The translations under genes and the position numbers were made by a program. A DNA stretch of 64,000 bases from an uncultured Gammaproteobacteria bacterium (GTDB taxonomy: Bacteria; Pseudomonadota; Gammaproteobacteria; JABCZS01), in contig CAWKDC010000001.1 of the NCBI GenBank assembly GCA_963848305.1, positions 704,001-768,000 of the forward strand, written 5' to 3'. A model generated the notes under the pieces. The model was not told where the DNA came from. It saw only the letters and a program-made list of their open reading frames with translations, and ran no database searches. This document shows, in pieces, positions 19,997 to 27,429 of this stretch (the stretch's first letter is position 1; each line of letters starts with the position of its first letter).

Positions 19997-22183
19997 TCAT
20001 TTAACGTCATTTTTCGATGAACTGCTTGCGGCAGGTTCTGCTGCTTGAGAGATCTTGGCTTGCAGCTGGAGTTTGACCAACCATGCATAGTCTTTGTTGT
20101 GCAAAGCTGGCAGTTTCGACAACACCTGAGCCGCATCATTTGGATTGATATGCTCCAGCGCAGCAACCCAAATGCGGTACACTCTTTCAGATCTAGCACG
20201 CCTCTCTCTTGCCCTGCTTCCAGAAAAATCAGGATAAGCGCTTATGTTGACAGGTTGGCACAAATAAGCCATCATTTTCTCAACATATATTGTTCTGTCC
20301 GCCGGGCGCATGTATGCGACAAACGTCAACAGCATTTTAAATTCCCTGTCAAAGTCTTCCTGTTCACCTAAACAGGACATCCGTTTCTCGATCAACGGCT
20401 CTAGTATTGTTGACGGTTTATAACCGCGCATCATCATTTTCTGCAATGCATCACAATATGAGTCAGGCATAGTATTTAAATATTTTAACGCCTTCTCCAA
20501 CAATTCCCATAGCGCATTCATTTGCTCATCAGAAAATGTGGCACTCGATGATGCATACAATACGCACGCGGCATAAAGCGCAGGATTATAGGGTACGTCG
20601 CCTGCTGGGAGGTTTTCAACAGGGTTCTCATCTACATTTTCATTTGCGTTCCCAGGAGGGGGGCCATAAAGATCTTCATAAGCATAGTCATGGATCGTTG
20701 GAATATCATTTTCACCAGGATTTTCATCTAAATTTTCATTATCGTTTCGATGGAATTGTGTAAAATAGGTTTGATAGAGGTATTCATTAAGGTCTCCACC
20801 CGTGTATGCTGGATCGATGCCTTCATCAGCATTCTCATCAATTGAATGGCTGACTTCCAACAATTTATCCATCACATACATTGCTTGTTCGCTTGTATAA
20901 CGAAAGCCTAGTCTCCCCAATCCTTCGATCGCCTTGACTTGCCAGTCCTCATGCGCAAAGGTATCACCGCTGATGTCTTCCAGATGAGCGCTCATCCAAT
21001 CAATAATATGAGTCATTTGTACATCATTAAATTTTGCTGCCTCTGCTATTTCAATGATGTTACTTAAACTTGTCATGAAAGCATTATAGTTATTTCCCTG
21101 TTTGCTTATCCTATAAAATTTTTCGATCACCCAATCAGCATCCTCTTCAGTCAGCTTATCAGCATAAATAGTGATTGCCCGCCCTAATTGGATGAGAAAA
21201 GTGATACTCCTCAATCTCGATACCTCTACTTGCCGCGCGAGATGATGTGCGACTTCTTTTTTCCTGGCATCATCCAAACGAACAAAAAGCATCGTCAGTA
21301 CATCTGCCCCTAATATGGCCTGACCTGGATTCTCATTTTTAATGAGCGCTAAAGACATGTCCGTCATGCTATTCACTGTGTGGACATCACTCTGTACAAT
21401 CAACTGCTTTAAATATCCCACTTTATCAAGCCAACCGGGTTCAAATAGATCCACAATTGAGTTCGTACTCAATAAGATCATTTCATCGAACAGCTTCAAC
21501 GCTTTTGCACTCACTCCACTAGGTCCCATGACGGGAAGTTCAAATACAAGCAATGCATCCTCTAGCAAGGATTTGATGTTAAATTGACGTCTGTTCTCAA
21601 CGGTCGGCAGGTCGCAATAAAGCAGAGATCCGTTATTGTTGAGCTCACGATAGTATTGTTCGACAAACTGTGCCTTCTGCGACTCATCTAATCGCTTACC
21701 TATTGCAATCATGTTTTTGTATGTAGACATCAGCTTGTCAAACCTTATGCCATTTGTGAGCGGGTTGTACTCTCCTTGGCGATATGTAGCTATGGCATTA
21801 AAAAGTTGAGATGTGATGGCGTTGAATTGATCACTGGAAAATTCATACGTAAAAATGTTTAACCGATCAGACAAGTCTACGCCGGGTGAAGACATGATCG
21901 CATCATATAAATCATTGATTTCGACTTGAATGCCCTGAGGATCTCGATATACCCATTTTTGTAAGATCAAAGCACAGAGCCGATGATGTTCGACAGGTGC
22001 TGTGTGATCTTTTAAAGAGGCAGTGAGTATTGCCTTCCATCTAGTCTTTTCTGCTTCAGGCATGATCGCATTGCGTGCCAGAAGTTCCTTCATGCACTTG
22101 AGTTGCATGTCACGGCCTTTGTCGCCGCTTTGGTTAAAAATGGTCGCGCAAGAGGCGTAATCATACTGATAATGGTACATCAT
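19997..22183 (-). CDS. Hypothetical helical protein (728 aa), paralog of 23069..25054
   Basis: Long ORF sharing N-terminal LKCMxELLARN...ASLxDHTAPVE and C-terminal LSKLPALHNKDY with the 661-aa ORF. Confidence 0.8.
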   Translation of the reverse strand: MMYHYQYDYASCATIFNQSGDKGRDMQLKCMKELLARNAIMPEAEKTRWKAILTASLKDHTAPVEHHRLCALILQKWVYRDPQGIQVEINDLYDAIMSSPGVDLSDRLNIFTYEFSSDQFNAITSQLFNAIATYRQGEYNPLTNGIRFDKLMSTYKNMIAIGKRLDESQKAQFVEQYYRELNNNGSLLYCDLPTVENRRQFNIKSLLEDALLVFELPVMGPSGVSAKALKLFDEMILLSTNSIVDLFEPGWLDKVGYLKQLIVQSDVHTVNSMTDMSLALIKNENPGQAILGADVLTMLFVRLDDARKKEVAHHLARQVEVSRLRSITFLIQLGRAITIYADKLTEEDADWVIEKFYRISKQGNNYNAFMTSLSNIIEIAEAAKFNDVQMTHIIDWMSAHLEDISGDTFAHEDWQVKAIEGLGRLGFRYTSEQAMYVMDKLLEVSHSIDENADEGIDPAYTGGDLNEYLYQTYFTQFHRNDNENLDENPGENDIPTIHDYAYEDLYGPPPGNANENVDENPVENLPAGDVPYNPALYAACVLYASSSATFSDEQMNALWELLEKALKYLNTMPDSYCDALQKMMMRGYKPSTILEPLIEKRMSCLGEQEDFDREFKMLLTFVAYMRPADRTIYVEKMMAYLCQPVNISAYPDFSGSRARERRARSERVYRIWVAALEHINPNDAAQVLSKLPALHNKDYAWLVKLQLQAKISQAAEPAASSSSKNDVK

Positions 22184-22199
22184 TCATTTCCAATTTATT

Positions 22200-23057
22200 T
22201 TATCTTAAGACAAGCCTAGATTTCTCGACAATGCAATTCTCTAATTCGTCAATCATTCTATGCTTAAGCAAATGATTGCTCGCTTCGAGATCAAACCCCA
22301 CTTGACTCGATAGATCATGCAGTTGATCCATGTCAAGATAGATCAATGTTTGACTCCAAATCGAGTATATATTCTCCATCATATGACTCATCATATCCGG
22401 TGAAGGCATAATTTTTATTCTCTCGCAGAGAACATTCGAGATTTCTGAAACGAAGGTTTCTTTTTCACCGCAAATATTTTCTTCCATGAATGTATTGAGT
22501 GCTTTGATATATTCAACTTTATTCTCATCATAGAGAAATTTCTTGAAATCATCACAGATATGTTTGAACAGCGCTATTCTTTGCTCGTGAGAACTGAATA
22601 CAATGTGATGACGAGACGCATACAAGTTTGCAGCAGCCTTGGTGAACGGGTTTGTAGCGGGATGATCCTCGTAATCGCTTTTGTGCTCATCGATCAATTG
22701 CAACAGATAATTCATTGTCTGAACCGCCTGTGCTTCATCAAGCTTGGGTACAAAGGCTTGAAGTGCCGTCACTCTACTATCTGCCAGATCCCAACTTACA
22801 CCAGGGAAAAGCGCCAAAAGAGCTTCCATCGCATTTGTGATTTGTGCCGGCGTTAATTGTTCCACGGTAGCTGTCAATTGCGCCGAGATCTCAGTTTCTT
22901 CATTCTGAAGATTAGCTAACATGTCAATGAATGCTGATGTGGTTACATCTAAAATTTTTCCAGACGCTTCCAACCAGTTTACCCATTCAGAATGCCCAAT
23001 GCTCGATTGGCTCTCAAGCTCTTCCGATCTTTCGTTTGATTGATATAAATTAAACAT
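22200..23057 (-). CDS. Hypothetical helical protein (285 aa), weakly related to its neighbours
   Basis: Tightly packed ORF. EAQAVQTMNYLL...AAANLYAS resembles SEQAMYVMDKLL...AACVLYAS of the 728-aa ORF. Confidence 0.7.
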   Translation of the reverse strand: MFNLYQSNERSEELESQSSIGHSEWVNWLEASGKILDVTTSAFIDMLANLQNEETEISAQLTATVEQLTPAQITNAMEALLALFPGVSWDLADSRVTALQAFVPKLDEAQAVQTMNYLLQLIDEHKSDYEDHPATNPFTKAAANLYASRHHIVFSSHEQRIALFKHICDDFKKFLYDENKVEYIKALNTFMEENICGEKETFVSEISNVLCERIKIMPSPDMMSHMMENIYSIWSQTLIYLDMDQLHDLSSQVGFDLEASNHLLKHRMIDELENCIVEKSRLVLR

Positions 23058-23068
23058 TGGTCACTGCC

Positions 23069-25054
23069 TTATGTGTGATGATTATTTACTGAACGTCTTG
23101 CGTCGAATTCGACTGATTGAGTGTTCCTGGTTTGCAACTGCACCTTGACCAACATTGTATAGTCTTTGTTGTGCAAGGCTGGCAGTTTCGACAAAATCAG
23201 AGCCGCATCATTTGAATCTATATGCTTCAACGCAGCGACAAAAACGGGATACACTTCTTCGGACTTGTCAGAAATATTTATATAAAAATTTTCCCCATGA
23301 CAATCATAAATCTCTTTATTATTGTGTCGGCACAAATAAGCCATCATTTTCTCTACAAATATTTTTTTATCTGCCGGAACCATGTATTGAATAAACTTTA
23401 TCAAGTTTTTACAAACGTCCGTGTCGCGTTCCAATATACTCAATTTGTTCATCCAAATTTCGATAAGTGGTTTCATTATGGTTGATTGCGTATAACCGTT
23501 TTTTAACATTTTTTCCAATGCTAGATAATATGAAGCTGGAGCAGTGCCCCCCAATAATTCAAACTCTTTAAACAGCAAACGCAATAGAAAATATATATCT
23601 TCACGAGAGAATTCAACATTCGATGAAACATACAATTGAGTCGCAGCCACTACCCCATCATTATAAAATAGGTTTTTTCCATTGTACTGCTCGTCAAAAG
23701 AATCGCTGACATCTAACAATCTATTCATTGCAATTTTTGCTTGATTTTCCGTATAGCAAGAGCTTAGGGTTCCCATGCTTTCGAGCGCTGTATTTTTGCA
23801 CTGTCTGTTACTATGTGAGTAAGCGCTCATCCCGTCTCCTTCTTCTACTTTGTTCCAAATCCATTCACTGATCAAACCGATTTCTGCTTCGCTGAACCTA
23901 TTTTTTTTGGCTATGACGATGAGCGCCTTCAAGACATTCGTCTTCGCTGTATCCAGGCTCATTGCTAGATCGGGATCTGCTGGCATTTCTTCTTTGTCTA
24001 TTCGAATCAGTTCTTTAATGGCATCATTGGCATCAGTTACCGTCAGATTATCTGCATAAGTAACAATTGCTTGCGCCAATTCGTTGACAATATCAACATA
24101 CATCATTCTGCCTGTTTTCACGCGCAATGCAAGCCTACGTGCCACTTCTATTTTTTTGAGATTATCAAGACGACTGAAAAGCTGCCTCAGCAACTGTAAT
24201 CCAGCTATGACTTCACCTTCCCTATCACTATTAATGAGCCCCAATGATGTGTCAGTGATTGTCTGCACTGTAGCGACATCACAGGATTCAAGCATTTCTC
24301 CTAGGCATGTTATATCATATTCACATCTACCATCATCATCTAAGATTCCTATTGAACTGGATATGATTGTGTCGAACAGCTCGGATGCAACTTTGCCCAT
24401 TTCAACGGGACTAGGTTTGATGCTTACCTGGCTTGGCTGCGATAAGACACTCAATGCCGCCTCCGCTAAGGGTCTGACATTATATTTACGTATCATCTCA
24501 AATGCAACAACTGACGATGTGTCATCGCTGATGTCATGACGGCATTGGGTGATAAATTGTGCTTTCTGCGACTCATCCAATCGCTTGCCTATTGCTGTCA
24601 AGTTTTTGTATGTGGCCTTCAGATTGTCCATGCTTGATATGGAATGATCGGGCTCTGGTTGACCATATCGCATCATGCTCTCAAAAAGGATAGATGCAAT
24701 GGCTTTGAATTGATCACTGGAAAATTCATATGCATACACTGCTAAGCGATCTGCCATGTCTTCACCCGGTGAAGACATGATTGAATGATATAAATCATTC
24801 ACCTCAGCTTGAATACCCTGGAGATCTCGGTATACCCATTTTTGCATGATCAACGCATAAATCCGATGGTTTTCCACGGGTGCTGTGTGATCCTGTAAAG
24901 AGGCGGTGAGCAACGCTGCCCATCTCGGTCTTTCTGAATCCGTCATTTGCACATTGCGCGCCAGGAGTTCGTTCATACACTTAAGACGCTTCTCGTGGGT
25001 TGTGTTCTCGAAAATACTTTCACATGAATTGTAGTCATAGCTATATTGACGCAT
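23069..25054 (-). CDS. Hypothetical helical protein (661 aa), paralog of 19997..22183
   Basis: AGGAG RBS upstream; shares extensive blocks with the 728-aa ORF. Confidence 0.8.
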   Translation of the reverse strand: MRQYSYDYNSCESIFENTTHEKRLKCMNELLARNVQMTDSERPRWAALLTASLQDHTAPVENHRIYALIMQKWVYRDLQGIQAEVNDLYHSIMSSPGEDMADRLAVYAYEFSSDQFKAIASILFESMMRYGQPEPDHSISSMDNLKATYKNLTAIGKRLDESQKAQFITQCRHDISDDTSSVVAFEMIRKYNVRPLAEAALSVLSQPSQVSIKPSPVEMGKVASELFDTIISSSIGILDDDGRCEYDITCLGEMLESCDVATVQTITDTSLGLINSDREGEVIAGLQLLRQLFSRLDNLKKIEVARRLALRVKTGRMMYVDIVNELAQAIVTYADNLTVTDANDAIKELIRIDKEEMPADPDLAMSLDTAKTNVLKALIVIAKKNRFSEAEIGLISEWIWNKVEEGDGMSAYSHSNRQCKNTALESMGTLSSCYTENQAKIAMNRLLDVSDSFDEQYNGKNLFYNDGVVAATQLYVSSNVEFSREDIYFLLRLLFKEFELLGGTAPASYYLALEKMLKNGYTQSTIMKPLIEIWMNKLSILERDTDVCKNLIKFIQYMVPADKKIFVEKMMAYLCRHNNKEIYDCHGENFYINISDKSEEVYPVFVAALKHIDSNDAALILSKLPALHNKDYTMLVKVQLQTRNTQSVEFDARRSVNNHHT

Positions 25055-25135
25055 ACGTTATCTCCTGATGGGTGCAAACGGCACCTTATCACAGCTTGAT
25101 AACTTATGTCAATAGCCTTGTATTAAATTTTTTTA

Positions 25136-25411
25136 TCATTCCTTCTCTTCATGCTCAATCACGCGACCAGGGGAACGCCTAAAATCGCCTGCAACCACCT
25201 TATCAGATTGATAAGGGACGGGCTCTTGGGGGACAGGGGGCTTGGTAAAAAAGAGATAGACCCTTCTAACAAGTAATGCAACAAACCCAAATAAAAGCAG
25301 GTACCAAATGAACACTATTCCGAGCACGAATAAGCCAGCTAAAACCCCAAGGAAGGCCAAGCCTAGCAGGATAGAGATCGTACGTTGGATGAAAGAGAGG
25401 GTTTGTTTCAA
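25136..25411 (-). CDS. Small membrane protein
   Basis: Long hydrophobic N-terminal half and C-terminal GRVIEHE; TTG start. Confidence 0.65.
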   Translation of the reverse strand: MKQTLSFIQRTISILLGLAFLGVLAGLFVLGIVFIWYLLLFGFVALLVRRVYLFFTKPPVPQEPVPYQSDKVVAGDFRRSPGRVIEHEEKE

Positions 25412-25414
25412 GGT

Positions 25415-25453
25415 AGTAGCCTAATAAGCCTATTCGATAGGTATTAGGCTACT
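25415..25453. terminator. Stem-loop downstream of the histone gene
   Basis: AGTAGCCTAATA/TATTAGGCTACT 12-bp arms plus inner CCTAT/ATAGG. There is no U-tract, so it may be a stabilising hairpin rather than a terminator. Confidence 0.5.
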
Positions 25454-25476
25454 CCATTTTTACCAGAGAATCAATA

Positions 25477-25662
25477 CTAGAAGTCGCGATCCATCACGGT
25501 TTTACGGCCATCACGCTTTGCTTTTTCAATGGCCTCATCGCACATTTTGCAGACAGCCCGGGAAAGTGCCTCTGCCACACTACCAGAAGTATTCATGCCG
25601 CCGGATTTTTCTTTGATGTACGCTTTGACTTTCGACACAACCACTAAAATTTCTTCACTCAT
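25477..25662 (-). CDS. Bacterial histone-fold protein (Bd0055/HBb-like, 61 aa)
   Basis: EILVVVSKVKAYIKEK-SGGMNTS...LSRAVCKMCDEAIEKAKRDGRKTVMDRDF: three-helix pattern and RKTVxxxD motif; AAGGAG RBS. Confidence 0.88.
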   Translation of the reverse strand: MSEEILVVVSKVKAYIKEKSGGMNTSGSVAEALSRAVCKMCDEAIEKAKRDGRKTVMDRDF

Positions 25663-25679
25663 TACATGCTCTCCTTAGA

Positions 25680-26846
25680 TTAAAAATTAAAACCAACAAC
25701 AAAAATTGAAAAGTATGTCAGCAGCCAATGAGACACGATGACCCCAATCAATGTGGAGTGGCGCGTATACAACCAACCCCAGAACAAGCTTAACACAAAT
25801 GTCGACATTGCCAATAGTATTGAAATATTCACGTGAGATAAACTGAAAAATAATGATGCCAACAAGATCGCCTGCCACTGACGGTTTCTGTGGCTTAAGA
25901 ATGTCATAAAGGATGTTTGACAAACGCCGCGAACAATGAATTCAATCGCTGGAACATAGACGATGAACCCTGCTAACAGTAAAATGCGTTCTCTCGCTGT
26001 TAATGCGCTTAAAATGCCTTTATAAAAAAACACAGGCGCCTCAGCCATGCCAGGCACCATCGCATGGGCCGCCAGTTTCGCCAAGACTATCATGGGCATC
26101 ATGAAAATCACGCTGATCAAAATGCTGTCTTTCAGGGCATACTCCCACCCATCGATCGTGAGCCCAAATGTTTTAGCATGAAAGCCACTGCGGATCAGCA
26201 GCTGGTAAAAAATAAATGCAAACATTAACACGACAGGAATAGATAAATACACAGTGCCCGCTGACAAAGGCACAACGGCATTGAAAAAACTCATCCCCAA
26301 GACGTAAAAACAGACCAAAGCCATCAAGCGGAAAATATATTGCCCCAGCAATACTTGTTTTTGGGAATATTTGAGTTGATCTTTCAGCTTGAGAACAGCT
26401 TTAGAGTTCAGGTTACGGATATTTTGGCTGAGTGTTTTTGCGAAATTAACTTTTAAAATATTGGATAATGACACTTCGGGCTTGGAATGCTTTTCCAAAT
26501 CAGCCACATTCAAACCAATGAGCTTCATTTCCTCCGCAGCCCGCACCGTGGCGGACCGGGGGCGTTGGTCAATGAGGGAAATCTCCCCAATCACATCGCC
26601 CTTTTTCAACAGGGCAATGTGATGGTACTCGCCATGATCATCTTCTTTGAGAACTTCACCGGTTCCGGAAGAGATGATATATATCGCATCACCAGGCTCG
26701 CCTTCTTGGACGACATTCACACCCACATTGACACGTCGCTCATACATCAAGCCAAGCAGCTCCTCCATTTGATCTGGAGTTAAGCCGCTGAACAGTGGGT
26801 TGGATAGAATTAATTCCCTGGATTGTTTGCTTAATATTTCCTGCAT
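25680..26846 (-). CDS. Cyclic-nucleotide-binding domain fused to a CPBP (CAAX/Abi) intramembrane metalloprotease domain
   Basis: N-terminal QEGEPGDAIYII, GEISLIDQRPRSATVRA; C-terminal multi-TM region with EFIVRG, FSLSH and SHWLL. Confidence 0.88.
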   Translation of the reverse strand: MQEILSKQSRELILSNPLFSGLTPDQMEELLGLMYERRVNVGVNVVQEGEPGDAIYIISSGTGEVLKEDDHGEYHHIALLKKGDVIGEISLIDQRPRSATVRAAEEMKLIGLNVADLEKHSKPEVSLSNILKVNFAKTLSQNIRNLNSKAVLKLKDQLKYSQKQVLLGQYIFRLMALVCFYVLGMSFFNAVVPLSAGTVYLSIPVVLMFAFIFYQLLIRSGFHAKTFGLTIDGWEYALKDSILISVIFMMPMIVLAKLAAHAMVPGMAEAPVFFYKGILSALTARERILLLAGFIVYVPAIEFIVRGVCQTSFMTFLSHRNRQWQAILLASLFFSLSHVNISILLAMSTFVLSLFWGWLYTRHSTLIGVIVSHWLLTYFSIFVVGFNF

Positions 26847-26940
26847 GCCTGTACCCTAAAAACGGTATGAACGTTCCCTCCAAAAGAGTATAGACACAGA
26901 ATAGCCAGACAGCAACATAAGATGATAAGATTTTAAACAA

Positions 26941-27429
26941 TCATGTAAGCTTTTCAATTAACATATTTATTGCATTGAGCACCGCTGCGGCATAAAGCGC
27001 CGCCAACAAGTCATCCACCATGATCCCCACTCCGCCACTTACTTTTTTATCCAACCAACCAATTGGCCAAGGCTTCAAGATATCGAAAAAACGAAATGCG
27101 ATAAAACCGAGTAGTAACGTCAGGGCATTGATGGGGACAAACATCATCATCAGCATCATGCCGGCGATTTCATCAATGACAATACCACTGTGGTCATGCA
27201 CATTTAATGCATGACTGCTCCAACCGGCAACGTAAGTACCCACAATAATGACGATCAAAGTAATGAGTACATATAAGGGCCATGAAAGCAAAGACATCAA
27301 CATGATGAAAGGAATGGCAACAAGAGAACCCATGGTGCCAGGTGCTATGGGGCTTAAACCTGCACCGAAACCAAATGCGAGCACGTGGAAAGGATGAGAG
27401 AAGACGGTGCGTGTGAGTGATGTGTGCAT
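26941..27429 (-). CDS. pgpA: Phosphatidylglycerophosphatase A
   Basis: GFGAGLSPIAPGTMGS, IVIDEIAG, FRFFDILKPWPI, GIMVDD. Confidence 0.96.
   Translation of the reverse strand: MHTSLTRTVFSHPFHVLAFGFGAGLSPIAPGTMGSLVAIPFIMLMSLLSWPLYVLITLIVIIVGTYVAGWSSHALNVHDHSGIVIDEIAGMMLMMMFVPINALTLLLGFIAFRFFDILKPWPIGWLDKKVSGGVGIMVDDLLAALYAAAVLNAINMLIEKLT

What the first reader, a model, noticed from the sequence alone, without database searches (positions are those of the whole stretch)
25477..25662. Bacterial histone (Bd0055/HBb-like) in a gammaproteobacterial housekeeping region
Seen: a 61-aa ORF with a strong RBS (AAGGAG) and a downstream hairpin, reading EILVVVSKVKAYIKEK-x-GMNTS...LS...C...AK-x-DGRKTVM-x-RD. 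Established: this matches, as I recall it, the singlet histone Bd0055 of Bdellovibrio bacteriovorus, including the RKTVxxxD motif. Bacterial histones are known mainly from Bdellovibrionota, Leptospira, Planctomycetota and Myxococcota. Inference: this is a histone in a lineage where they are unusual, at the distal end of the nrdR-rib-nusB-thiL-pgpA run and outside the island, so it may be a fixed nucleoid protein. Gene callers easily miss it.
Basis: partly seen in the sequence, partly recalled or inferred. Interest (0 to 1): 0.88.

Follow-up and report, generated by a model that had tools for sequence, protein, structure and literature searches.

The report
Bdellovibrio-type histone in a gammaproteobacterium
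A 61-residue gene in this uncultured, probably host-associated gammaproteobacterium encodes a true bacterial histone of the kind solved from Bdellovibrio, kept under strong selection across its whole small family, which adds a new lineage to a known protein family and does not reveal a new kind of protein.

Summary
The ORF is real: 25477-25662, minus strand, 61 aa, AAGGAG 8 nt before the ATG, stable hairpin downstream. It is a Bd0055/HBb-type "bacterial dimer" histone. phmmer to PDB 8fvx/8cmp gives E 1.3e-13 at 56% identity. The AlphaFold model (pLDDT 91.6) superposes on them at TM 0.85-0.87, rmsd about 1 A. The RD clamp, the RKTV loop and 8 of 10 HBb DNA-contact residues are kept, and a homodimer is supported in silico.

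It is not a contaminant. It lies on a 1.58-Mb contig and occurs in 10 of 11 other genomes of the family. Two genera share the pgpA / cNMP-CPBP protease / histone order. dN/dS is 0.02-0.20 and composition matches the neighbours.

The host belongs to an uncultured, single-family gammaproteobacterial order carrying Dot/Icm (IcmK), with four HU/IHF genes as well. In a 400-genome class sample, 11 genomes outside the family also have such a histone. None of the 87 other IcmK-positive genomes does.

This is a new member of a known kind, in a lineage not named in the text I could read. DNA binding, abundance and in-cell role are inferred, not shown. Interest is moderate.

The parts
25477..25662 (-). 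61-aa histone gene of the Bd0055/HBb 'bacterial dimer' type, stop codon included
   Evidence: ORF listing. PDB phmmer E 1.3e-13 to 8fvx_A/8cmp_A. AF2 pLDDT 91.6. Foldseek TM 0.85-0.87 to 8fvx, 9ezz, 9f0e, 8cmp. Pfam CBFD_NFYB_HMF 20.5 bits, below the 21.4 cut-off.
25671..25676 (-). Shine-Dalgarno AAGGAG, 8 nt upstream of the ATG
   Evidence: Read directly from the sequence. An AAGGAG or GGAG-like motif sits at the same place in the orthologues.
25412..25455 (-). Stable hairpin 21 nt after the stop codon. Possible terminator, but with no U tract on this strand.
   Evidence: RNA fold -23.7 kcal/mol, z -3.8. Not called by the terminator scan. Strong downstream hairpins are predicted in 10 of the 11 family loci, and G002 has a canonical one with a U tract.
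25680..26846 (-). Upstream co-oriented gene: cyclic-nucleotide-binding domain fused to a CPBP/Rce1-like intramembrane protease. Only a 17-nt gap to the histone, so the two are probably co-transcribed.
   Evidence: Pfam cNMP_binding 2e-16 and Rce1-like 6.9e-11. Adjacent to the histone in genera g1 and g3. Not found in 5 of 5 g4 genomes searched.
26922..26957 (-). Two overlapping sigma-70-like promoter matches upstream of the cNMP-CPBP gene. These are the only minus-strand promoter-like sites found upstream of the histone within 25000-27100.
   Evidence: Consensus scan: 6 sites found against 4.4 +/- 2.1 in shuffles, so this is weak evidence.

Best explanation
The gene encodes a singlet, alpha3-truncated bacterial histone of the Bd0055/HBb ('bacterial dimer') family.

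Inferred mechanism, by homology to the solved HBb/Bd0055-DNA structures:
- Two chains form the handshake histone-fold homodimer.
- The paired L1/L2 loops (T25-S26 of one chain; K54-T55 and R59 of the other) and the first turn of alpha1 (S10-K11, K13) contact the phosphate backbone at the minor groove, without sequence specificity.
- The dimer lacks the archaeal tetramerisation histidine, so it should bend or coat DNA and not wrap it.
- It would therefore act as a nucleoid-associated protein alongside the genome's four HU/IHF-family genes.

In this genus it is most likely transcribed together with the upstream cNMP-binding CPBP protease gene. An ancestor of this uncultured Dot/Icm-bearing gammaproteobacterial family acquired it horizontally, and it has since been kept under strong purifying selection.

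Shown here: homology, fold, residue conservation, predicted dimer, conservation and selection.
Inferred only: DNA binding, abundance, nucleoid role, co-transcription, and a single acquisition.
For: Sequence:
- phmmer to 8fvx_A/8cmp_A E 1.3e-13 over residues 4-60. Weaker matches to HLp 9qt0 (4.7e-7) and HTkC 9f2c (1.2e-4).

Fold:
- AF2 with a 74-row alignment gives pLDDT 91.6, with helices at 9-20, 29-50 and 58-60.
- The top 5 Foldseek PDB hits are all Bd0055/HBb: TM 0.84-0.87, rmsd 0.9-1.8 A, 55-56% identity.

Residues (mapping from the alignment, contacts from Hu 2024 section 20):
- 8 of 10 HBb DNA contacts are identical: S9, K10, K12, T23, S24, K52, T53, R57 correspond to S10, K11, K13, T25, S26, K54, T55, R59. 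T8 is V9 and A25 is G27.
- The salt-bridge residues D49/R51/D58 correspond to D51/R53/D60.
- K11, K13, R53, K54, T55, D58, R59 and D60 are invariant across the 74 homologues.

Dimer:
- ipSAE 0.76 against a best control of 0.00. The runs agree in at least 98% of their contacts and the partner pLDDT is at least 88. The mark was reached by 20 of 30 proteins solved as pairs and 1 of 23 solved as single chains. The counts hold only roughly because my own alignment was used, and the pass may come from memory of the solved HBb dimer.

A real, fixed gene:
- Single copy on contig C1 of a 4-contig, 1.89-Mb genome.
- Present in 10 of 11 other genomes of the family, and in 6 of 6 high-quality genomes of the order counting G000. 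The one miss is 53% complete.
- The pgpA / cNMP-CPBP / histone (/ orf91) order is shared by G001, G002, G004 and G006.
- dN/dS 0.02-0.20 in the 8 of 10 pairs where dS could be computed.
- GC 0.468 and GC3 0.50, against 0.44-0.49 and 0.43-0.51 in the neighbours.

Other nucleoid proteins: four PF00216 (HU/IHF) genes in the genome.
Against: - No experiment and no expression data. No RNA run holds the stretch.
- The Pfam histone model matches only residues 29-60 and falls under its cut-off (20.5 against 21.4 bits; 19.2 bits). The NCBIfam archaeal histone model scores 18.3 against 50.
- There is no room for a promoter of its own in the 17-nt gap, and no promoter-like site was found inside the upstream gene. 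That is odd for a protein expected to be very abundant.
- In the quick tree the three genera do not group together. Genus g1 carries a one-residue L1 insertion (SGGM) that g3 and g4 lack, and g4 has the gene at another locus, after a recJ-like gene. A single acquisition is therefore not shown, only not rejected (AU p 0.377).
- The literature itself disagrees on what Bd0055 does to DNA: end-on filament in Hocher 2023, bending in Hu 2024.
Confidence: 0.8

Rival explanations
1. It is a histone-fold protein with a local or regulatory role and not a global nucleoid organiser. For example, it could be a low-abundance DNA-bending cofactor whose level follows the cyclic-nucleotide-sensing CPBP protease gene it sits behind.
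For: - Only a 17-19 nt gap to the upstream gene in genus g1, and no promoter-like site of its own.
- The linkage to the cNMP-CPBP gene is kept in two genera.
- The genome already has four HU/IHF-family genes.
- Schwab 2024 cautions that not all prokaryotic histones need be global organisers (passage seen).
Against: - The linkage is not general. None of the 78 loci from other lineages (L015-L092) has a cNMP-CPBP relative beside the histone.
- Genus g4 keeps the histone while the protease was not found in 5 of 5 genomes.
- In g3 and g4 the gene has a 60-75 nt upstream spacer, with a TTGACT-16-TAGAAT-like match in G004. That match is my reading of the output, not a tool call.
- Very strong purifying selection and conservation of every DNA-contact residue fit the abundant nucleoid protein of Bdellovibrio.
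Confidence: 0.14
2. It is a Dot/Icm-translocated effector: a histone mimic delivered into a eukaryotic host to act on host chromatin.
For: - The genome and all 7 other family genomes searched carry DotH/IcmK.
- The gene borders a stretch of large ORFs without Pfam matches and with lower GC. These are not found at the same place in G002.
Against: - It is 56-77% identical to the histones of free-living, predatory and planctomycete bacteria, and keeps their whole residue pattern.
- It ends at alpha3 with no C-terminal tail that could carry a translocation signal.
- Hocher 2023 found no secretion of Bd0055 (section 7 read).
- 0 of 87 other IcmK-positive genomes have it, so it is not part of a shared effector set.
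Confidence: 0.03
3. It is an assembly contaminant, a chimeric contig piece, or a recent transient transfer without function.
For: - Hocher 2023 warns that patchy histone hits can be contaminants or transient transfers.
- The nearest non-family relatives are from Bdellovibrionota, Planctomycetota and Chlamydiota.
Against: - The same gene order occurs in four independently assembled genomes of two genera.
- It sits inside a 1.58-Mb contig.
- Two short metagenome contigs bridge the junction between the histone and the upstream gene with no differences. Both are from one study and may be from the source sample.
- Composition matches the neighbours, and synonymous sites are near saturation with dN/dS at or below 0.2.
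Confidence: 0.01

Closest known systems
Bd0055 / HBb of Bdellovibrio bacteriovorus (PDB 8fvx, 8fw7, 8cmp, 9ezz, 9f0e); 'bacterial dimer' alpha3-truncated histones of Schwab et al. 2024
   Same: - 56% identity over 57 residues, about the same length, the same three-helix fold with a short alpha2 and a 3-residue alpha3.
- S-K motif at the start of alpha1, RKTVM loop, RD clamp, and no tetramerisation histidine.
- Predicted homodimer.
   Different: - The host is a Dot/Icm-bearing gammaproteobacterium and not a predator.
- One extra residue in loop L1 (KSGGMNTS against K-GQMNTS).
- T8 is V9 and A25 is G27. R50 and K47 stand where Bd0055 has A48 and S45. The chain ends at F61, which corresponds to I59.
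- The gene sits 17 nt behind a cNMP-CPBP protease gene.
- No data on abundance or essentiality.
Bacterial-dimer histones of Chlamydiota (Waddlia and Simkania are named in Hu 2025) and of Planctomycetota and Myxococcota MAGs
   Same: - 69-74% identity.
- The Chlamydiales and Myxococcales-type sequences share the SGGM / SDGM one-residue L1 insertion with genus g1.
- They fall in the same weakly supported cluster in the quick tree (support 80).
   Different: The relationship is unresolved: 66 columns, and 50 of 94 branches open. No donor can be named.
Face-to-face histones HLp (Leptospira perolatii, 9qt0) and HTkC (Thermococcus kodakarensis, 9f2c)
   Same: Same alpha3-truncated fold: TM 0.87-0.88, 33-40% identity.
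   Different: Those form tetramers that wrap about 60 bp (abstract and section 6 of Hu 2025). The sequence match is far weaker (E 4.7e-7 and 1.2e-4). No tetramer was tested here.
Other gammaproteobacterial bacterial-dimer histones found here (families f35, f49, f112, f121, f182, f214)
   Same: Same family, 60-66% identity.
   Different: - Six rows from f35, f112, f182 and f214 form their own clade (support 86) with RKTVKDRD in place of RKTVMDRD.
- None of these genomes has IcmK.
- One (G352) is a tandem doublet.
- They look like separate acquisitions.

Membership tests
Bacterial dimer (Bd0055/HBb-type) alpha3-truncated histones | Clusters by sequence with Bd0055/HBb. Schwab 2024 defines the category by sequence clustering. 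| tested here: met
   phmmer E 1.3e-13 and 56% identity to 8fvx_A/8cmp_A. 1093 relatives at E<=1e-3, with the best non-family ones at 72-77% identity. The definition comes from a passage seen.
Bacterial dimer (Bd0055/HBb-type) alpha3-truncated histones | Histone fold with a shortened alpha2 and an alpha3 of only 3-4 residues | tested here: met
   AF2 model with helices at 9-20, 29-50 and 58-60. TM 0.85-0.87 and rmsd about 1 A to the solved HBb/Bd0055 chains.
Bacterial dimer (Bd0055/HBb-type) alpha3-truncated histones | RKTxxxD (RKTV) L2 motif with the RD clamp | tested here: met
   R53-K54-T55-V56-M57-D58-R59-D60, with D51, R53 and D60 matching HBb D49, R51 and D58. R53, K54, T55, D58, R59 and D60 are invariant in 74 sequences.
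Bacterial dimer (Bd0055/HBb-type) alpha3-truncated histones | Conserved alpha1 lysines (K11, K13, K17 in Schwab's logo) and the S-K motif at the start of alpha1 | tested here: met
   S10, K11, K13 and K17 are present. K11 and K13 are invariant and S10 nearly so. The motifs come from passages seen.
Bacterial dimer (Bd0055/HBb-type) alpha3-truncated histones | Forms dimers only: lacks the archaeal tetramerisation histidine and the FtF dimer-dimer residues | tested here: inconclusive
   R50 stands at the Bd0055 A48 position, where the tetramer-restoring mutant carries H. The homodimer is supported in silico (0.76 against 0.00). No tetramer model was run, and the FtF positions R48/N52 could not be mapped with confidence.
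Bacterial dimer (Bd0055/HBb-type) alpha3-truncated histones | Non-specific DNA binding, with high abundance on the nucleoid | not testable with these tools
   Only residue conservation speaks to this: 8 of 10 HBb DNA contacts are identical. No RNA or protein data are available.
Pfam PF00808 CBFD_NFYB_HMF | Score at or above the gathering threshold of 21.4 bits | tested here: not met
   20.5 bits, E 6.1e-4, residues 29-60 only. 19.2 bits in the whole-genome search. This is a near miss of a model built mainly on eukaryotic and archaeal sequences. It shows why Pfam-based annotation leaves the protein unnamed.
Pfam PF09123 DUF1931 (pseudodimeric histones) | Match to the doublet model | tested here: not met
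   No match in the whole genome at E<=1. The PDB chain labelled DUF1931 that matched (9qt0) is the singlet HLp.

The most novel reading that the evidence does not exclude
This uncultured Dot/Icm-bearing gammaproteobacterial order has made a horizontally acquired Bdellovibrio-type histone a fixed chromatin component, alone among the 90 IcmK-positive genomes sampled. It may use the histone to compact the nucleoid of a small transmissive or resting cell form. That would be a histone-fold counterpart of the histone-H1-like proteins that I recall, from no call, in the compact cell forms of Chlamydia and Coxiella, and of Bd0055 in attack-phase Bdellovibrio. The upstream cyclic-nucleotide-sensing membrane protease gene could tie its expression to a developmental signal.
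Probability: 0.2. Interest if true: 0.65.

Novelty: new member of a known kind. Interest (0 to 1): 0.45.

Why it matters
Bacterial histones have been tested in the laboratory only in Bdellovibrio and Leptospira. The published text I could read stresses phylogenetic persistence in Bdellovibrionota and Leptospirales (Hocher 2023). It lists bacterial dimers mainly in Bdellovibrionota, Elusimicrobiota, Spirochaetota, Planctomycetota, Myxococcota_A and Chlamydiota (Schwab 2024).

This finding adds a whole gammaproteobacterial family, the only family of its order, in which the gene persists under strong selection beside HU and IHF, in bacteria that carry a Dot/Icm secretion system.

It offers three things:
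- A case of a histone settled into a proteobacterial nucleoid whose other nucleoid proteins are those of well-studied model gammaproteobacteria.
- A possible third instance of histones going with compact-cell life cycles (predator, chlamydiae, and this lineage).
- A warning that Pfam-threshold surveys under-count this family.

It is not a new kind of protein.

Tried and rejected
- Expression: no RNA holder was listed for the stretch. The DNA holders were laid. Only 151-268-nt low-depth contigs matched, and none spans the whole stretch. Two contigs from one study bridge the histone/upstream-gene junction. Parts without cover mean nothing.
- Promoter: the consensus scan found no minus-strand site between the histone and 26900. 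My reading of upstream sequences in the relatives gave a plausible TTGACT-16-TAGAAT in G004 only. I do not rely on it.
- Donor and origin: the careful tree did not finish in time, and the quick tree (97 rows x 66 columns, 50 of 94 branches open) cannot name a donor. Monophyly of the 11 family sequences is neither shown nor rejected: lnL 9.9 lower, AU p 0.377.
- Finer taxonomy: GlyA relatives with names say only 'Gammaproteobacteria', Thioalkalivibrio, Thiofilum or Muproteobacteria at 73-75% identity. No order name could be assigned.
- Second histone: the only other own-genome hit (C1:924578-924691, E 0.047, one TAG inside) was treated as noise. PF00808 and DUF1931 found nothing else.
- Functional link to the cNMP-CPBP gene as a general rule: rejected.
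- Supplementary tables of Hocher 2023 and Schwab 2024, which list every genome with a histone, were closed. They may already contain members of this lineage or other Gammaproteobacteria.

Full report
OBSERVATION

AAGGAG lies at 25671-25676 (reverse complement), 8 nt before the ATG.

A hairpin of 19 pairs at 25412-25455 starts 21 nt after the stop. The 81-nt stretch folds at -23.7 kcal/mol, z = -3.8, and 0 of 200 shuffles fold as well. It has no U tract on the coding strand, and the terminator scan did not call it.

Pfam confirms glyA, nrdR, ribD, ribE, ribH, nusB, thiL and pgpA upstream. At 25680-26846 lies a 388-aa fusion of a cyclic-nucleotide-binding domain with a CPBP/Rce1-like intramembrane protease. 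It ends 17 nt before the histone start.

Downstream come a 91-aa membrane-like ORF and then ORFs of 661, 285 and 728 aa. These three have no significant Pfam match and lower GC, 0.40-0.43.

WHAT IT IS

Sequence. phmmer against all PDB chains gives 8fvx_A and 8cmp_A, the two solved forms of Bdellovibrio bacteriovorus Bd0055/HBb, at E 1.3e-13 over residues 4-60. Next come the Leptospira FtF histone HLp (9qt0, 4.7e-7) and the archaeal HTkC (9f2c, 1.2e-4) (names).

Fold. An AlphaFold2 model built on 74 homologues has mean pLDDT 91.6, with helices at 9-20, 29-50 and 58-60. This is the short alpha2 and stub alpha3 that define alpha3-truncated histones (Schwab 2024, passage). Foldseek against the PDB returns Bd0055/HBb chains as ranks 1-5 (TM 0.84-0.87, rmsd 0.9-1.8 A, 55-56% identity). 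HLp, HTkC and then classical archaeal and eukaryotic histones follow.

Residues. I used the alignment, in which 8fvx chain numbering equals the papers' numbering.
- HBb's DNA-contact residues are K12, T23, S24, A25, K52, T53, R57 and T8, S9, K10 (Hu 2024, section 20 read).
- They correspond here to K13, T25, S26, G27, K54, T55, R59 and V9, S10, K11, so 8 of 10 are identical.
- The salt-bridge trio D49/R51/D58 is D51/R53/D60.
- The dimer-core residues V11, L31, I35, L38 and I59 are V12, L33, V37, M40 and F61.
- Where Hocher's tetramer-restoring mutant carries A48H and S45F, this protein has R50 and K47, so there is no archaeal-type histidine.

Dimer. A two-copy complex prediction scored ipSAE 0.76 against a best control of 0.00. 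The runs agree in at least 98% of their contacts, and the partner pLDDT is at least 88. The mark was reached by 20 of 30 proteins solved as pairs and 1 of 23 solved as single chains. These counts hold only roughly because my own alignment was used, and because HBb dimers are solved the pass may come from memory.

Curated models just miss. Pfam CBFD_NFYB_HMF scores 20.5 bits against a cut-off of 21.4, on residues 29-60 only. The NCBIfam archaeal histone model scores 18.3 against 50. Only 1 of the 120 listed homologues carries a precomputed Pfam domain.

IS IT REALLY PART OF THIS GENOME?

The window is C1:704001-768000 of a 1.89-Mb, 4-contig genome that is 92% complete. The gene is single-copy, and the longest contig holding the protein is 1,576,621 bases. 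PF00808 finds nothing else in the genome, and DUF1931 finds nothing at all.

The host's order contains a single family with 12 species genomes.
- 11 of the 12 have the gene, G000 included.
- 6 of 6 high-quality genomes have it.
- The one miss is 53% complete.

Gene order differs by genus.
- In genera g1 (G001, G002) and g3 (G004, G006) the order pgpA / cNMP-CPBP / histone is kept. orf91 follows in three of the four.
- In genus g4 (6 genomes) the histone lies after a recJ-like DHH gene and next to a bacterioferritin-like gene.
- The cNMP-CPBP gene was not found in 5 of 5 g4 genomes searched.

Nei-Gojobori estimates give dN/dS 0.02-0.20 in the 8 of 10 pairs where dS could be computed. The other two pairs are saturated. 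The gene's GC (0.468) and GC3 (0.50) match those of its neighbours.

Two short metagenome contigs from one study cross the histone/upstream-gene junction without a difference. They may come from the source sample, so they are weak support.

Contamination, chimerism and recent transient transfer are therefore excluded as far as sequence data can exclude them.

THE HOST AND THE DISTRIBUTION

Same-genus MAGs are titled 'Gammaproteobacteria bacterium'. GlyA's named relatives are all gammaproteobacterial. I could not name the order.

The genome has DotH/IcmK (PF12293). Here it is split into two overlapping ORFs, whereas it is intact in G001 and G002. All 7 other family genomes I searched have it as well. 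The genome also has four HU/IHF-family genes.

In an even sample of 400 genomes of the class, 14 match the histone.
- 3 are the host's own genus.
- 11 are others, in families f35, f49, f112, f121, f182 and f214.
- One of the 11 is a weak match with two TGA stops in G151, an unpublished genome.

In the same sample, 90 of 400 genomes have IcmK. None of the 11 other histone-positive genomes is among them, so 0 of 87 other IcmK-positive genomes carry the histone.

Across named genomes the closest relatives outside the family, at 62-77% identity, are mostly Bdellovibrionota, Planctomycetota, Chlamydiota and Myxococcota MAGs. Of 599 pattern matches, 332 were confirmed, and the 80 best were kept.

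PHYLOGENY

I extracted 101 histone sequences from the loci. Before building the tree I made these changes:
- I dropped 4 duplicates: L013 = L003, L014 = L004, L094 = L090, L095 = L092.
- I replaced the two L093 entries by the two halves of its doublet.
- L002, the weak own-genome hit, was never included.

The careful search did not finish. The quick tree has 97 rows x 66 columns, with 50 of 94 inner branches open.
- It recovers g1 (support 92), g3 (98) and g4 (91) as clades, but not together.
- g1 falls with Bdellovibrionota, Chlamydiota and Myxococcota rows (support 80).
- g4 falls next to Krumholzibacteriia-type rows (support 88).
- Holding the 11 family rows together costs 9.9 lnL, and the AU test does not reject it (p 0.377).
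- Six other gammaproteobacterial rows form their own clade (support 86). They are marked by RKTVKDRD, unlike the RKTVMDRD seen here.

So Gammaproteobacteria acquired this histone several times. Whether this family acquired it once (with relocation in g4) or more than once stays open. The one-residue L1 insertion of g1, shared with Chlamydiales- and Myxococcales-type sequences but not with g3 or g4, stays unexplained given the shared synteny of g1 and g3.

HOW IT MOST LIKELY WORKS

By homology it is a handshake homodimer. Its L1/L2 loop pairs and its alpha1 N-termini grip the DNA backbone at the minor groove without sequence preference. It cannot stack into tetramers, so it bends or coats DNA and does not wrap it.

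The literature disagrees on which mode applies to Bd0055: filament in Hocher 2023, bending in Hu 2024.

In this genus the 17-nt gap and the lack of any promoter-like site inside the upstream gene suggest transcription from the promoter-like sites at 26922-26957, together with the cNMP-CPBP gene, ending at or near the hairpin. This is inference. No RNA run holds the stretch (see Tried and rejected).

COMPARISON AND NOVELTY

The protein meets every testable defining feature of the bacterial-dimer histone family. Dimer-only assembly is inconclusive, and DNA binding is untestable here.

The text I read names other phyla for this family. No paper in the library holds both 'Bd0055' and 'Gammaproteobacteria'. 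None holds 3 of the 4 terms 'histone fold', 'Legionellales', 'Gammaproteobacteria' and 'bacterial histones'.

I rate it a new member of a known kind, of moderate interest. The protein itself is ordinary for its family. The interest lies in its fixation in a Dot/Icm-bearing gammaproteobacterial order beside HU and IHF.

Noticed in passing
window 25680-26846 (-): A 388-aa fusion of a cyclic-nucleotide-binding domain (residues 40-118) with a CPBP/Rce1-like intramembrane protease (288-377). It is conserved at 65-82% identity next to the histone in genera g1 and g3. It was not found in 5 of 5 g4 genomes searched. A cNMP-gated membrane protease would be unusual in itself.
   Followed up: partly
G000:C1:920666-921368 (outside the window; loci L106/L107): The DotH/IcmK gene of the window's own genome is split into two overlapping ORFs (profile positions 1-99 and 96-236). 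It is one intact ORF in G001, G002 and five other family genomes. This is either a frameshift or an assembly error.
   Followed up: no
L093 (G352:C8:64338-64706, another gammaproteobacterial family): A 126-aa ORF made of two tandem bacterial-dimer histone folds in one frame: a pseudodimer derived from the Bd0055-type family and not from DUF1931. The two halves are each other's nearest relatives in the quick tree (support 81).
   Followed up: partly
L096-L101 (families f35, f112, f182, f214 of the class): A gammaproteobacterial sub-clade of bacterial-dimer histones with RKTVKDRD in place of the otherwise invariant RKTVMDRD. None of these genomes has IcmK.
   Followed up: partly
window 19997-25054 (-): Three consecutive large ORFs (728, 285 and 661 aa) without significant Pfam matches and with lower GC (0.40-0.43). 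Neither the 661-aa nor the 285-aa ORF (the two I used as queries) has a counterpart downstream of the histone in G002. They look like a variable region, possibly secretion-system substrates.
   Followed up: no
window 25136-25411 (-): A 91-aa hydrophobic ORF directly after the hairpin, conserved at 31-41% identity in G001, G002 and G006. It has no family match: DUF4191 and SA1362 score far below their cut-offs.
   Followed up: no
L007-L012 (genus g4): The g4 histone genes share a conserved upstream spacer of about 75 nt (…CTAG.CTATAGCC ATTAG…) after a recJ-like gene. It may be their own promoter or an operator.
   Followed up: no
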